Position numbers and translations under genes: made by a program. From Escherichia coli (GTDB lineage Bacteria; Pseudomonadota; Gammaproteobacteria; Enterobacterales; Enterobacteriaceae): a DNA stretch of 64,000 bases. Shown here in pieces: positions 31,126 to 34,177 of the stretch. Where the stretch lies: assembly GCF_016903815.1 (NCBI RefSeq), contig NZ_CP069973.1, one strand, 5' to 3'. Each line of letters begins with the position of its first letter. The stretch's first letter is position 1. The notes beneath the pieces were generated by a model. That model worked only from the letters and a program-made list of their open reading frames with translations, was not told the origin of the DNA and ran no database searches.

Positions 31126-31208
31126 GCCTAGGATAAGGCGTTCGCGCCGCATCCGACATCCGGTGCACCATGCCTGATGCGACGCTTGTGCGTCTTATCA
31201 TGCCTACC
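31126..31208. repeat. Pair of REP-like palindromic units (BIME-like) between yohD and yohF
   Basis: gcctgatgcgacgcttgtgcgtcttatcatgcctac and an adjacent ggataaggcgttcgcgccgcatccgacatccgg unit. Confidence 0.6.
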
Positions 31209-31247: not shown

Positions 31248-32009
31248 CTATTCTGGGTTGAACTGCGGATTCGCCAGCATAAAGCCGCCATCCACTATCA
31301 ACGACTGCCCAGTGGTGTAATTTGCGCCCTCCGAACAAAGCCACACCACCAGGCTGGCAATCTCATGCGTTGCGCCAAAACGCCGCAAGGGAATCGAAGG
31401 CTCCGCGCCGGGCTTCACGTCGCCATCATCCATGCCGTTCATTGGCGTGGCGATCGCCCCAGGTGCAACCGCATTCACCAAAATCTTATGCCTGACCAGC
31501 TCCAGCGCCATCGCTTTGGTTAACCCGCCGAGCGCATGTTTAGCGGCTGTGTAGGCGCTGGCATCCGGCAACGGCGTATGTTCATGCACCGACGTAATGT
31601 TGATGATGCGACCACCCTGCCCTTGTTTCACCATCTGGCGGGCAGCAATTTGCGAGCATAAAAATGCACCATCGACATCAACGGTAAAAATCTTGCGCCA
31701 CTCATCGAAAGCCATATCAAGAAACGGCGCTTTGGTCATTGCACCCGCATTATTCACCAGCACATCAATACGCCCCAGCCGTTGAATGAGTTTCTCCAGC
31801 GCCAGTGCCCCTTCTGGTAGATTGCCGAGATCCAGCTGCACGATCTCCGCACGTACGCCGTGGCTAACTACCTCACGCGCGGTATCTTTTGCCCCTTCTT
31901 CATCTGAGTGCCAGGTAATACCAATATCAAACCCCTGCTGCGCCAGTAATAACGCGCACTCTTTGCCGATCCCCGAATCGGAAGCGGTAATAATCGCAAC
32001 CTGTGCCAT
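31248..32009 (-). CDS. yohF: Short-chain dehydrogenase/reductase
   Basis: TASDSGIGKECA Rossmann motif; 253 aa. Confidence 0.85.
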   Translation of the reverse strand: MAQVAIITASDSGIGKECALLLAQQGFDIGITWHSDEEGAKDTAREVVSHGVRAEIVQLDLGNLPEGALALEKLIQRLGRIDVLVNNAGAMTKAPFLDMAFDEWRKIFTVDVDGAFLCSQIAARQMVKQGQGGRIINITSVHEHTPLPDASAYTAAKHALGGLTKAMALELVRHKILVNAVAPGAIATPMNGMDDGDVKPGAEPSIPLRRFGATHEIASLVVWLCSEGANYTTGQSLIVDGGFMLANPQFNPE

Positions 32010-32061
32010 CGAGTTCTCCACTTAACGCTGAATAAACGTTAAGTATAGAAGGCGCATATCA

Positions 32062-33498
32062 TCAGCGTTTGTAACCCCCGCCCAACGCACCAGTGAGTTG
32101 AATGGAGGCATCCAGCCACTGCCCTTGCAATAACAGGCCATTGGCCCGCTCACGCAGCGCGGGGATTCTGGCTTCGCTGACCCGGGAACCCGCAATGAGG
32201 CCCGCGTTAAAGCGCGCCTGCGCAAGACCTACTACACGCAAGGCATCGCGCTCAATTTGCGCCTGATGCTGGTTTTTCTCCGCCAGTGTCTGAACCTGAC
32301 TGGCTGCCTGCGCCACGTCATTCACCGCTTCAACCACCGCTTTGTTGTAGCTGGCGATAGACAAGTTGCTTTCGGCTTTTGCGATATCGAGGTTGGCGTT
32401 AAGACGACCACTATCGAAAATGGGTAGCGTCAGGCCTGCCGTAACGCCCATTTGCTGCGCGGAATGACGGAACAGATCGCTTAAGTGCAACGCATCCTGT
32501 TGCAGGAAGGCCATCAGGTTGATGTCAGGATAAAATGCCGCTTTTGCCGCATCAATAGTGCTTAACGATGACTCAACGTACCAGTGCGCCGCCTGCAAAT
32601 CTGCCCGCCGGGCCAGTAAGGAGTACCCCAGTTCATCAGGAAGCTGGCTTGCCACTTTCGGCAACGCGACCGGATTAAGCTTCAATGCCTTTGTCTGGTG
32701 ATTTGTAAGTGCGCTTAACCGTGCCTCAATAATTTTCATTTTCCCCGCGACATCGTTGAGCTGCTGCCGGGTTTTGCTGGCATTAATATCGGTTTCCACA
32801 CCTTCAACTGAAGAAGTAATCCCGTTCTGATATAGCTGGCGATCGGTGGCGATAATAGTGTTCTGCTCTTTTTCGATTTGCTGTAAGACCGTGTTTAACG
32901 CCGCCTGGGTTTGCCACTCCCAGTACAGACGGGCTACGCTGCCAGCCAGCAATTGGCGGGTTTGCTCGCGTTCCGCCGCCCGTGCTTTAACCGTACCCAG
33001 GCGAGCAGTAACCTCCGCCCGATTCTTTCCCCAGATATCGAGATGCCAGCCCGCCGTTAAGCCAAAAGTACCGTTGGTGTACCACGGACCGGTCGTACCT
33101 GCGGCAGGATCGTTCAGAGCAAACGGCCCCATTAACCCTTCTGCAGACATTTTTTGCCGCTCCATATCCGCAGAAAAGTCGATCTGCGGACCATCCTGAG
33201 TGGCAATTGCCTTCGCCTGGGCTTCAGCCAGCTGAATGCGCTGTTCAGCCACCTGCATATCCGGTGCGCTCTGTAGTGCGTTATTAATTAAGGAAGTGAG
33301 TTGATTATCGTGATACTCCAGCCACCATTGGCTGTCTGGCCAACCATTTTTCAGCGCCGTGGGTAATGCGGTGTCAACTTGTGCAGCGGGCGTTTGCTGG
33401 CTTAACGCCTGGCGGGTTTCATGCATAGGCGCACACCCGGTCAGCATCAGTAACAGCGGAAAACAGGCGATGGCTGGATAAAAAAAATCACGATTCAT
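32062..33498 (-). CDS. mdtQ: Outer-membrane efflux (OMF/TolC-type) lipoprotein, apparently intact (478 aa)
   Basis: Lipoprotein signal with LTGC lipobox; continuous ORF. Confidence 0.8.
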   Translation of the reverse strand: MNRDFFYPAIACFPLLLMLTGCAPMHETRQALSQQTPAAQVDTALPTALKNGWPDSQWWLEYHDNQLTSLINNALQSAPDMQVAEQRIQLAEAQAKAIATQDGPQIDFSADMERQKMSAEGLMGPFALNDPAAGTTGPWYTNGTFGLTAGWHLDIWGKNRAEVTARLGTVKARAAEREQTRQLLAGSVARLYWEWQTQAALNTVLQQIEKEQNTIIATDRQLYQNGITSSVEGVETDINASKTRQQLNDVAGKMKIIEARLSALTNHQTKALKLNPVALPKVASQLPDELGYSLLARRADLQAAHWYVESSLSTIDAAKAAFYPDINLMAFLQQDALHLSDLFRHSAQQMGVTAGLTLPIFDSGRLNANLDIAKAESNLSIASYNKAVVEAVNDVAQAASQVQTLAEKNQHQAQIERDALRVVGLAQARFNAGLIAGSRVSEARIPALRERANGLLLQGQWLDASIQLTGALGGGYKR

Positions 33499-33721
33499 GG
33501 GGGAATAATCAGGTAAGAAAAGGTGCGCGGAGATTACCGTGTGTTGCGATATATTTTTTAGTTTCGCGTGGCAATACATCAGTGGCAATAAAACGACATA
33601 TCCAGAAAAATATACACTAAGTGAATGATATCTTCCGATTTATCTTAATCGTTTATGGATAGCGGCAAAGGGCTTCGTTTTTTCCTATACTTATTCAGCA
33701 CTCACAAATAAAGGAACGCCA

Positions 33722-33805
33722 ATGAAAATTATACTCTGGGCTGTATTGATTATTTTCCTGATTGGGCTACTGGTGGTGACTGGCGTATTTAAGATGATAT
33801 TTTAA
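33722..33805 (+). CDS. yohP: Small membrane protein, 27 aa
   Basis: aaaggaacg SD then ATG; MKIILWAVLIIFLIGLLVVTGVFKMIF. Confidence 0.55.
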   Translation: MKIILWAVLIIFLIGLLVVTGVFKMIF

Positions 33806-33899
33806 AATTAATTAATGTCATCAGATCCGAAAATAACGAGAATATTTCAGTCTCTCATCCTGTTGCGCTCCTGTCATGTGCATTGCTTCATATAATCAC

Positions 33900-34130
33900 T
33901 GGCGCAAGGAGCGCGCAGGGGGCGACCAATCGCCGCCGCCCCCTGCACCCCCGGGCTCTGGCGAACAAAATCGCCGCTGCGCGGTGCCCTCGGCTTATCC
34001 CTTACGGCTACCGGGTCGGGCGCGAGGTAACATCCCTGTAAAACGCGCCCTCAGCCCACATCCATGTGGGCTGCCCCGGCCTTCAGGGAACGCCTCGGCG
34101 ATTTTGACGCCACCAAACAACCGTGCGGCC
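33900..34130. repeat. GC-rich structured intergenic element with nested inverted repeats
   Basis: cagggggcg...cgccccctg; cagcccacatc/catgtgggctg perfect palindrome; ggcgaacaaaatcgccg mirrored by cggcgattttgacgcc. Confidence 0.4.
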
Positions 34131-34177
34131 TATTGATAAAGAGCTAACACATTGTCAAAAAACATCACTATGGTTTC

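What the first reader, a model, noticed from the sequence alone, without database searches (positions are those of the whole stretch)
32062..33498. Orphan, apparently intact outer-membrane efflux lipoprotein gene
This is a continuous 478-codon ORF with a lipoprotein signal (LTGC lipobox). No membrane-fusion or inner-membrane pump genes lie nearby; the neighbours are yohF and yohP. From memory this gene is annotated as a pseudogene in K-12 laboratory strains. An intact copy here suggests a different strain background and a functional orphan channel that must pair with pumps encoded elsewhere.
Basis: partly seen in the sequence, partly recalled or inferred. Interest (0 to 1): 0.4.

Follow-up and report, generated by a model that had tools for sequence, protein, structure and literature searches.

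The report
Intact mdtQ outer-membrane channel gene
This is the normal, undamaged form of the E. coli gene mdtQ, a TolC-like outer-membrane channel lipoprotein encoded on its own; only laboratory K-12 strains carry the broken copy, so the finding is correct but ordinary.

Summary
Window 32062-33498 (minus strand) is an uninterrupted 478-codon ORF with a lipoprotein signal (L-T-G-C, Cys22). It matches the NCBIfam MdtQ equivalog end to end (1015 bits, cutoff 650) and has two OEP repeats. Its predicted fold matches only outer-membrane factors.

K-12 MG1655 annotates mdtQ (b2139) as a pseudogene. The only length difference is one base lost from an A-run (window A5, K-12 A4) at codon 49/50.

The intact state is the rule, not the exception. 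The in-frame 66-nt context is an exact match in 4581 of 5407 complete E. coli genomes. The K-12 allele is exact in 355, and all 60 of those listed are laboratory K-12 derivatives.

The gene stands alone. The 64-kb window has no adaptor or pump gene, and none lies beside the orthologue in 78 Enterobacteriaceae loci. It is under strong purifying selection (dN/dS 0.04-0.13; 75 of 79 loci intact).

The nearest homologues that still sit in operons accompany FUSC-type (MdtNOP-like) or MFS/EmrA-type pumps, never RND pumps. This hints at the kind of unlinked partner MdtQ uses.

All of this is already in the literature, including the K-12 pseudogene annotation. Interest is low.

The parts
32062..33498 (-). 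mdtQ (formerly yohG) coding sequence, 478 aa plus stop. It encodes an outer-membrane factor (OMF) lipoprotein of the NodT/TolC superfamily.
   Evidence: ORF. NCBIfam NF008524 MdtQ equivalog scores 1015.5 bits (cutoff 650) over residues 1-478 of 478; TIGR01845 scores 274 bits (cutoff 210). Pfam OEP matches in two stretches. RefSeq annotates the identical strain 7/2 gene as mdtQ, WP_001078043.1.
33433..33498 (-). Lipoprotein signal peptide, residues 1-22. The lipobox L19-T20-G21-C22 lies at 33433-33444. Cys22 is the predicted acylated N-terminus of the mature protein, and Ala at +2 predicts Lol-dependent sorting to the outer membrane.
   Evidence: Read directly from the sequence. Cys22 and Ala23 are invariant in alignment A1. 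A lipobox is found in nearly all orthologous loci. The +2 sorting rule is established knowledge and was not tested here.
33351..33355 (-). A5 run (gene nt 144-148, codons 48-50), the site of the K-12 frameshift. The window has AAAAA and stays in frame. K-12 has AAAA, which leads to a stop about 20 codons later.
   Evidence: Pairwise alignment of the window gene with MG1655 b2139 gives 31 substitutions and this single 1-bp gap. Allele counts across 5407 genomes are.
32701..33294 (-). First OEP repeat (residues 69-266). A second OEP stretch follows in the C-terminal half.
   Evidence: Pfam PF02321 matches in 2 stretches; the best covers residues 69-266. The AF2 model shows long paired helices at 144-224 and 363-431.
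33554..33575 (-). Conserved 22-nt element, ATTGCCACGCG(A/T)AACTAAAAAA, at -56 to -77 from the ATG. It is a candidate promoter or regulator site; its function is unknown.
   Evidence: In the upstream alignment its core (TTGCCACGCG, ACTAAA) is invariant and the whole element nearly so across Escherichia spp., Salmonella, Citrobacter, Phytobacter and Superficieibacter, while the flanking sequence diverges. The consensus sigma-70 scan found nothing above chance here.
32010..32061 (-). 52-bp spacer between mdtQ and yohF. It holds an AT-rich hairpin (CTTAACG-N9-CGTTAAG) with no T-run, followed by the yohF Shine-Dalgarno GGAG. Read-through co-transcription is possible.
   Evidence: Sequence. The scan found no terminator-like site in this spacer. 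yohF is absent from many genera that keep mdtQ, so the two genes are not obligately coupled.
31248..32009 (-). yohF (SDR oxidoreductase), the downstream neighbour. Listed for context only.
33722..33805 (+). yohP (27-aa small membrane protein), the divergent upstream neighbour. Listed for context only.

Best explanation
This is the wild-type, intact allele of mdtQ (formerly yohG), one of the four TolC-type outer-membrane factors of E. coli (TolC, CusC, MdtP, MdtQ).

**Inferred mechanism.**
- The precursor is exported, acylated at Cys22 and sorted to the outer membrane.
- There it trimerises into a beta-barrel/alpha-barrel exit duct.
- The duct docks with the hairpin tips of a periplasmic adaptor belonging to an inner-membrane exporter encoded elsewhere on the chromosome.

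**Likely partner type.** The closest relatives that still sit in operons serve FUSC-type (MdtNOP/AaeAB-like) or MFS-type (EmrAB/VceCAB-like) transporters with EmrA/AaeA-type adaptors. The most likely partners are therefore non-RND pumps of that kind.

**Shown here:**
- gene identity, intactness, family and fold;
- stand-alone gene organisation across Enterobacteriaceae;
- purifying selection;
- restriction of the frameshift to K-12.

**Inferred only:** trimerisation, the docking mechanism, expression, substrates and the identity of the partner.
For: - **Identity.** MdtQ equivalog, full length, 1015 bits. Two OEP repeats. By sequence the nearest solved structures are VceC (1yc9, 1.3e-39), then OprM, CusC and SilC. 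The AF2 model (pLDDT 70) gives 43 significant Foldseek PDB hits, all OMFs; the next hit has E=0.17. MdtQ is 35% identical to K-12 MdtP over its full length.
- **Intact versus K-12.** The only indel is A5 versus A4 at codon 49/50. A5 is exact in 4581 of 5407 genomes and A4 in 355. All 60 listed A4 carriers are K-12 laboratory strains.
- **Conserved function.** Orthologues occur at the same position (dusC...mdtQ...yohD-yohC-pbpG-dld) in 78 loci from about 15 genera. 75 of 79 are uninterrupted. dN/dS is 0.04-0.13.
- **Stand-alone organisation.** No pump genes occur in the 64-kb window. The extra DNA upstream in Klebsiella and Enterobacter is a bgl-like sugar cassette, not a pump.
- **Partner type.** Of seven informative contexts for homologues at 32-42% identity, four are (YtcA-)MFP-FUSC-OMF and three are MFS plus an EmrA-like MFP. 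None is RND.
[quoted passage not shown] Transcript induction is reported in Salmonella (PMC9065344, PMC5381912).
Against: - No direct evidence of expression or channel activity exists for this allele.
- No consensus sigma-70 promoter was found, and the sequence before the ATG (CCTGATTATTCCCCC) lacks a Shine-Dalgarno motif. Expression may be low or conditional.
- K-12 lives without the gene. Independent truncations occur in Salmonella Typhi and Paratyphi A (PMC9241588), and one IS1 insertion was seen among 39 sampled E. coli genomes (H8). The gene is therefore dispensable in some niches.
- The published susceptibility phenotype is attributed to E. coli null mutants. I could not read the primary paper. 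If those mutants were made in K-12, the phenotype is hard to reconcile with the frameshift.
- The partner-type inference rests on seven contexts of distant homologues.
- The beta-barrel segments of the AF2 monomer model have low confidence.
Confidence: 0.8

Rival explanations
1. The ORF is intact but the gene is effectively cryptic or redundant. It is barely expressed, TolC does all relevant work, and the gene is free to decay wherever drift allows, as in K-12.
For: - No promoter consensus above chance was found.
- There is no Shine-Dalgarno motif before the ATG.
- Loss has occurred in K-12, through an IS1 insertion in one sampled genome (H8), and through independent truncations in Typhi and Paratyphi A.
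- The promoter has not been confirmed experimentally and the function is not elucidated (PMC11762307).
Against: - dN/dS of 0.04-0.13 at every evolutionary depth, and 75 of 79 intact orthologues across about 15 genera, are incompatible with neutrality.
- A conserved upstream element suggests regulated rather than absent expression.
- Transcript induction is reported in Salmonella.
Confidence: 0.1
2. MdtQ is an alternative exit duct for RND pumps (AcrAB, AcrEF, MdtABC and similar), acting as a back-up for TolC.
For: - It belongs to the NodT subfamily, which includes the RND partners OprM, CusC, OprJ and OprN.
- mdtQ is co-induced with mdtB/C/E genes in a ciprofloxacin-selected Salmonella strain (PMC5381912).
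Against: - None of seven informative operon contexts of its nearest homologues contains an RND gene. All are FUSC- or MFS-type.
- The nearest solved structure by sequence is VceC, the OMF of an MFS pump. The nearest paralogue is MdtP, the OMF of the FUSC-type MdtNO.
- From general knowledge, not tested here: tolC deletion causes hypersusceptibility in non-K-12 Enterobacteriaceae that carry intact mdtQ. MdtQ therefore does not substitute for TolC at native expression.
Confidence: 0.07
3. MdtQ works without a dedicated pump, for example as a passive outer-membrane channel or a component of a non-efflux process such as secretion or uptake.
For: - It has stood alone in every Enterobacteriaceae genome examined.
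- No partner has ever been identified (PMC11762307).
- The tripartite-pump review does not mention MdtQ in the portion held (the first 300,000 of about 748,000 characters; PMC8277102).
Against: - All characterised family members function by docking with periplasmic adaptors.
- The long alpha-barrel helices used for docking are the best-conserved and most confidently modelled parts.
- tolC is likewise not encoded next to any pump gene yet serves many pumps. In the review it shares an operon only with ygiB and ygiC, genes of unknown function (PMC11762307).
Confidence: 0.03

Closest known systems
MdtQ/YohG of E. coli (NCBIfam NF008524; UniProt Q8X659 in O157:H7; K-12 pseudogene b2139)
   Same: It is the same gene at the same chromosomal position, between yohF and yohP/dusC. 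The window gene differs from K-12 at 31 of 1436 aligned bases (97.8% identical). The protein is identical to WP_001078043.1 of strain 7/2.
   Different: Compared with K-12, the window has no frameshift (A5, not A4), and there are 9 amino-acid substitutions. These include a lipobox of LTGC instead of LAGC.
MdtP (YjcP), the OMF of the ytcA-mdtN-mdtO-mdtP operon of E. coli
   Same: It is the closest paralogue: 35% identity over the full length, E=1e-87. Both are NodT-type lipoproteins. The same drug-susceptibility pattern is reported for null mutants of each (PMC11762307).
   Different: mdtP is the last gene of an operon with its adaptor (MdtN) and a FUSC-type transporter (MdtO). mdtQ has no linked partners in any genome examined.
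VceC of Vibrio cholerae (PDB 1YC9), the OMF of the MFS-type VceCAB pump
   Same: It is the best solved-structure match by sequence (1.3e-39, residues 51-477) and a top Foldseek match.
   Different: VceC is encoded with VceA and VceB. It shares only about 21% identity with MdtQ in the structural alignment.
TolC of E. coli
   Different: - TolC is not a lipoprotein.
- Sequence identity is about 12%.
- TolC has many demonstrated partners and strong phenotypes, whereas MdtQ has none demonstrated.

Membership tests
Outer membrane factor (OMF) family, NodT lipoprotein subfamily (TIGR01845 / Pfam OEP PF02321) | HMM score above the curated cut-offs, with two tandem OEP repeats | tested here: met
   TIGR01845 scores 274.4 bits against a cutoff of 210. 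PF02321 scores 106 bits against a cutoff of 22, in 2 stretches.
Outer membrane factor (OMF) family, NodT lipoprotein subfamily (TIGR01845 / Pfam OEP PF02321) | N-terminal lipoprotein signal peptide with a lipobox cysteine | tested here: met
   The sequence reads ...LLLMLTGC22-A. Cys22 is invariant in 29 orthologues. Acylation itself cannot be tested here.
Outer membrane factor (OMF) family, NodT lipoprotein subfamily (TIGR01845 / Pfam OEP PF02321) | TolC-like protomer fold: long alpha-hairpins plus beta-barrel strands | tested here: met
   The 43 best Foldseek PDB hits are all OMFs, with TM scores of 0.43-0.67 (0.5-0.65 for most) and E down to 7e-11. The next hit has E=0.17. One caveat: the beta-strand segments (residues 103-151 and 326-362) have pLDDT below 50 in the monomer model.
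Outer membrane factor (OMF) family, NodT lipoprotein subfamily (TIGR01845 / Pfam OEP PF02321) | Homotrimeric channel that docks with a periplasmic adaptor of an inner-membrane transporter | not testable with these tools
   This needs biochemistry or structure determination. No partner is known (PMC11762307).
MdtQ equivalog (NCBIfam NF008524) | Full-length match above the equivalog cutoff of 650 bits | tested here: met
   1015.5 bits over residues 1-478 of 478.
MdtQ equivalog (NCBIfam NF008524) | Orthologous chromosomal position between dusC/yohP and yohF/yohD | tested here: met
   The gene order matches K-12 and strain 7/2. The same order is seen in 78 loci of Enterobacteriaceae.
K-12-type mdtQ pseudogene (b2139) | 1-bp deletion in the A-run at codon 49/50 (A4), causing a premature stop | tested here: not met
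   The window has A5 and an open 478-codon frame.
Operon-encoded OMF of a tripartite pump (the CusC, MdtP, OprM type of gene organisation) | Adjacent genes for a membrane-fusion protein and an inner-membrane transporter | tested here: not met
   There are none in the 64-kb window, and none flanking the orthologues in other genera.

The most novel reading that the evidence does not exclude
MdtQ may be the missing outer-membrane partner of a non-RND pump that has no OMF gene of its own.

- **AaeAB.** This is the most attractive candidate. A 2021 review lists it as 'AaeAB-?', meaning its OMF is unknown (PMC8277102).
- **MdtNO.** Alternatively, MdtQ could be a second duct for MdtNO.
- **Conditional expression.** The conserved 22-nt upstream element (33554-33575) could control when the gene is expressed.

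The supporting evidence is indirect:
- MdtQ's nearest operon-encoded relatives accompany FUSC-type or MFS-type transporters with AaeA/EmrA-like adaptors, and never RND pumps.
- Its closest paralogue is MdtP.
Probability: 0.15. Interest if true: 0.45.

Novelty: already known. Interest (0 to 1): 0.1.

Why it matters
It matters little beyond correct annotation. The main practical point is a reminder about K-12. K-12 is atypical because it lacks one of the four E. coli outer-membrane efflux ducts through a lineage-specific 1-bp deletion. Efflux studies done only in K-12 therefore cannot reveal MdtQ's role.

The open question is which pump or pumps MdtQ serves and under what conditions. The gene is under strong purifying selection across Enterobacteriaceae, so some function exists. 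The context analysis here narrows the candidates to FUSC- or MFS-type pumps with EmrA/AaeA-type adaptors, which is directly testable.

Tried and rejected
- **Linked pump genes.** I looked for them in the whole 64-kb window through the annotation of the near-identical strain 7/2. There are none.
- **Ancestral pump genes beside orthologues.** The 5-6 kb of extra DNA upstream of mdtQ in Klebsiella, Kluyvera and Enterobacter looked promising. It encodes a BglG-like antiterminator, a PTS EIIBCA, a 6-phospho-beta-glucosidase, and in Enterobacter a probable porin (identified by reading the ORF translations). I rejected it as a pump cassette.
- **Functional mdtQ-yohF pair.** The 52-bp spacer has no terminator. 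However, yohF is absent from E. albertii, E. whittamii, most Citrobacter, Klebsiella, Raoultella and Kluyvera, all of which keep mdtQ. An obligate coupling is rejected.
- **Promoter scan.** Hits were no more frequent than chance, and none lies directly upstream of mdtQ.
- **Upstream direct repeat.** TATTGCCAC-N5-TATTGCCAC looked like a regulator site, but only the second copy is conserved in other genera.
- **Rfam scan of 31.0-35.5 kb.** It found only a REP/naRNA4-like element, just under its gathering score, and a clearly sub-threshold TwoAYGGAY hit in the TRIP1c repeat. Nothing relates to mdtQ.
- **Primary phenotype paper.** Sulavik 2001 (PMC90435) is not held. I cite it only through reviews.
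- **The search for homologous proteins.** The 120 listed hits were all at least 79% identical to the query, and every one that carried a name was called MdtQ except one Citrobacter entry labelled MdtP precursor. The search was therefore uninformative about partners. The exhaustive representative search was needed instead.
- **Short contigs.** Two of the nearest homologues (P0121 at 60% and P0126 at 37%) lie on contigs too short to show context.

Full report
**1. Observation**

On the minus strand an ATG at window 33498 opens a frame that closes at 32062, giving 1437 nt and 478 codons plus a stop.

The N-terminus is MNRDFFYPAIACFPLLLMLTGC|APMHE. It has a short polar n-region, a hydrophobic core and a lipobox L-T-G-C, with Cys22 followed by Ala. 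The ORF listing extends the frame upstream to a TTG at 33588. That extension is not conserved in other genera, and RefSeq uses the ATG.

**2. Identity**

- **Family models.** The protein matches the NCBIfam equivalog model for MdtQ over its whole length (NF008524, 1015.5 bits against a 650-bit cutoff, residues 1-478 of 478). It also exceeds the cutoff of the NodT-type 'efflux transporter outer membrane subunit' subfamily (TIGR01845, 274 against 210 bits). Pfam finds two OEP repeats.
- **Solved structures by sequence.** The nearest is VceC of Vibrio cholerae (1yc9, E=1.3e-39). OprM, CusC, SilC, CmeC, OprN and MtrE follow.
- **Predicted fold.** An AlphaFold2 model built on 29 orthologues has mean pLDDT 70 and pTM 0.67. 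The long helices are modelled confidently and the beta-strand segments poorly. Foldseek against the PDB returns 43 hits with E at or below 1e-4, and every one is an outer-membrane factor. The next hit has E=0.17.
- **Paralogue.** The closest E. coli paralogue is MdtP, at 35% identity over the full length (E=1e-87).

**3. The K-12 comparison**

MG1655 annotates mdtQ (b2139) as a pseudogene of 1436 bp.

A global alignment of the two genes shows 31 substitutions and a single gap. The window reads GCTGAAAAATGG (A5, window 33351-33355) where K-12 reads GCTGAAAATGG (A4), at codon 49/50. In K-12 the shifted frame stops about 20 codons later. The rest of the protein remains readable in another frame but without a signal peptide.

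**4. How unusual is an intact copy?**

It is not unusual.

- **Presence.** The locus occurs in 5423 of 5426 complete E. coli genomes, always on the chromosome.
- **In-frame allele.** A 66-nt probe centred on the A-run matches exactly, with A5, in 4581 of 5407 genomes.
- **K-12 allele.** The corresponding A4 probe matches exactly in 355 genomes. All 60 of those listed are recognisable K-12 laboratory derivatives, such as MG1655, C600, J53, DH5alpha, DH1, NCM3722 and AG100.
- **Remainder.** The remaining roughly 470 genomes have point differences in the probe.
- **Sampled length.** In an evenly spaced sample of 39 full-coverage genomes, 36 have the same locus length as the window. Two are K-12-like (one base shorter) and one carries an IS1 insertion.

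Intact mdtQ is thus the normal state, and the frameshift is a peculiarity of the K-12 lineage.

The window itself is 63,999/64,000 identical to E. coli strain 7/2, a human faecal isolate from Sweden.

**5. Is it truly an orphan?**

Yes. The strain 7/2 annotation transfers to the window. It shows no membrane-fusion protein and no RND, MFS-efflux, FUSC or ABC-export gene anywhere in the 64 kb. The only ABC systems are the importers yehWXY-osmF and mglBAC.

A scan of one genome per species returned 79 loci.

- **Orthologues.** They share 65-97% identity and occur in Escherichia, Salmonella, Citrobacter, Klebsiella, Raoultella, Kluyvera, Enterobacter, Lelliottia, Leclercia, Yokenella, Phytobacter, Superficieibacter and Pluralibacter. 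One further locus, a distant Burkholderiales homologue, was also returned.
- **Synteny.** The order dusC...mdtQ...yohD-yohC-pbpG-dld is conserved throughout.
- **Insert upstream.** Several genera have 5-6 kb inserted just upstream of mdtQ, but this is a beta-glucoside utilisation cassette, not a pump.
- **yohF.** It is present in some genera and absent in others, which argues against an obligate mdtQ-yohF unit. This holds even though the 52-bp spacer has no terminator.

**6. Is it functional?**

Indirect evidence is strong.

- **Intact orthologues.** 75 of 79 loci carry a single uninterrupted full-length ORF, nearly always with a recognisable lipobox.
- **Exceptions.** Three loci are split into several tblastn segments (frameshifts or assembly errors), and one is cut by a contig end.
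- **Selection.** Nei-Gojobori dN/dS against the window is 0.12 for K-12 (22 synonymous and 9 non-synonymous differences). It is 0.04-0.07 for other Escherichia lineages and about 0.05 for Salmonella and Citrobacter. It is 0.08-0.14 for Klebsiella and Enterobacter, where dS is saturated.
- **Upstream element.** A 22-nt element upstream of the gene (window 33554-33575) is conserved across genera, while its surroundings are not.

Some evidence points the other way.

- There is no Shine-Dalgarno motif before the ATG, and no consensus promoter was found.
- K-12 survives without the gene.
- Independent truncations are reported in Salmonella Typhi and Paratyphi A (PMC9241588).

**7. What partners?**

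Nothing is known. The 2025 TolC review makes these points (PMC11762307):

- mdtQ is 'encoded independently';
- its function has 'not been elucidated';
- its promoter is unconfirmed;
[quoted passage not shown] I could not read the primary paper behind that phenotype.

To get at the type of partner, I examined the nearest homologues that are not orthologues and their genomic contexts.

| Homologue | Identity to MdtQ | Context |
|---|---|---|
| P0127 | 42% | YtcA-MFP-FUSC-OMF |
| P0125 | 40% | FUSC-OMF (contig cut) |
| P0129 | 37% | YtcA-MFP-FUSC-OMF |
| P0128 | 36% | YtcA-MFP-FUSC-OMF-MarR |
| P0131 | 39% | MFS-OMF-MFP (EmrA-like) |
| P0136 | 39% | MFS-OMF, next gene unidentified |
| Burkholderiales locus L084 | 32% | MarR-OMF-MFP-MFS |

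Four contexts are therefore FUSC-type, the MdtNOP architecture, and three pair an MFS transporter with an EmrA-like adaptor. None of the seven contains an RND gene.

Taken with VceC and MdtP being the closest characterised relatives, this places MdtQ in an OMF clade that serves non-RND pumps with EmrA/AaeA-type adaptors. E. coli has such pumps without an OMF gene of their own. A 2021 review lists 'AaeAB-?' (PMC8277102). That MdtQ serves one of them is a reasonable hypothesis, but it is untested.

**8. Verdict**

The finding is nevertheless ordinary.

- It is the standard, already annotated and already discussed wild-type mdtQ.
- The K-12 pseudogene is the exception.
- Novelty is 'already known' and interest is about 0.1.
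- The only forward-looking element is the context-based narrowing of candidate partners. I rate it at about 15% probability for a specific AaeAB or MdtNO pairing, of moderate interest if true.

Noticed in passing
window 9080-12772: There is a lineage-specific deletion or fusion in the yehI-yehM region. The first ~2256 nt match yehI (DUF4132) of other E. coli, then the sequence jumps into the 3' part of a DUF5682 gene. RefSeq marks both pieces as pseudogenes in strain 7/2. Only 97 of 5426 genomes share this arrangement over at least 80% of its length.
   Followed up: partly
window 13657: This is the single nucleotide difference between the 64-kb window and E. coli strain 7/2 (NZ_CP023820.1). 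It lies inside yehP.
   Followed up: no
window 33554-33575 (minus strand): A 22-nt element, ATTGCCACGCG(A/T)AACTAAAAAA, lies 56-77 nt upstream of the mdtQ ATG. It is conserved from Escherichia to Salmonella, Citrobacter, Phytobacter and Superficieibacter while the flanking sequence diverges. A second conserved block, GTAATCTCCGCGCACCTTTTCTTA, lies closer to the ATG. Both are candidate regulatory sites of unknown function.
   Followed up: partly
window ~33862-34134: The GC-rich repeat between yohP and dusC corresponds to TRIP1c, described in PMC10888264 as lying 363 bp upstream of yohG and 43 bp downstream of yohI/dusC. That paper reports it as a substrate for chromosomal rearrangements. It contains several inverted repeats and gives a sub-threshold TwoAYGGAY Rfam hit (30 bits against 43).
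   Followed up: partly
window 31127-31204: A REP-type element between yohD and yohF matches Rfam naRNA4 (CssrE) at 59.3 bits, just under the gathering score of 59.5.
   Followed up: no
L034 2813-7887; L071 1752-7640: In Klebsiella, Kluyvera, Raoultella and several Enterobacter and Lelliottia genomes, extra DNA lies between dusC and mdtQ. In the two loci read, it encodes (as judged by reading the ORF translations) a BglG-like antiterminator, a PTS EIIBCA and a 6-phospho-beta-glucosidase. Enterobacter also has a probable porin, and Klebsiella an ORF resembling a methyltransferase. This marks the site as a hotspot for insertion.
   Followed up: yes
window 33499-33513 (minus strand, just upstream of the ATG): The 15 nt before the mdtQ start codon (CCTGATTATTCCCCC) are pyrimidine-rich and lack any Shine-Dalgarno motif. 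The orthologues in other genera are similarly C-rich there. This suggests intrinsically weak or unconventional translation initiation.
   Followed up: no
literature versus K-12 locus (L001 3324-4759): Reviews attribute a drug-susceptibility phenotype to mdtQ (yohG) null mutants of E. coli, and a Keio yohG deletion scores in a ciprofloxacin-persister screen (PMC13131330). K-12 mdtQ is frameshifted at codon 50. Its downstream frame lacks a signal peptide. If the phenotypes are real they need another explanation, such as polarity on yohF.
   Followed up: partly
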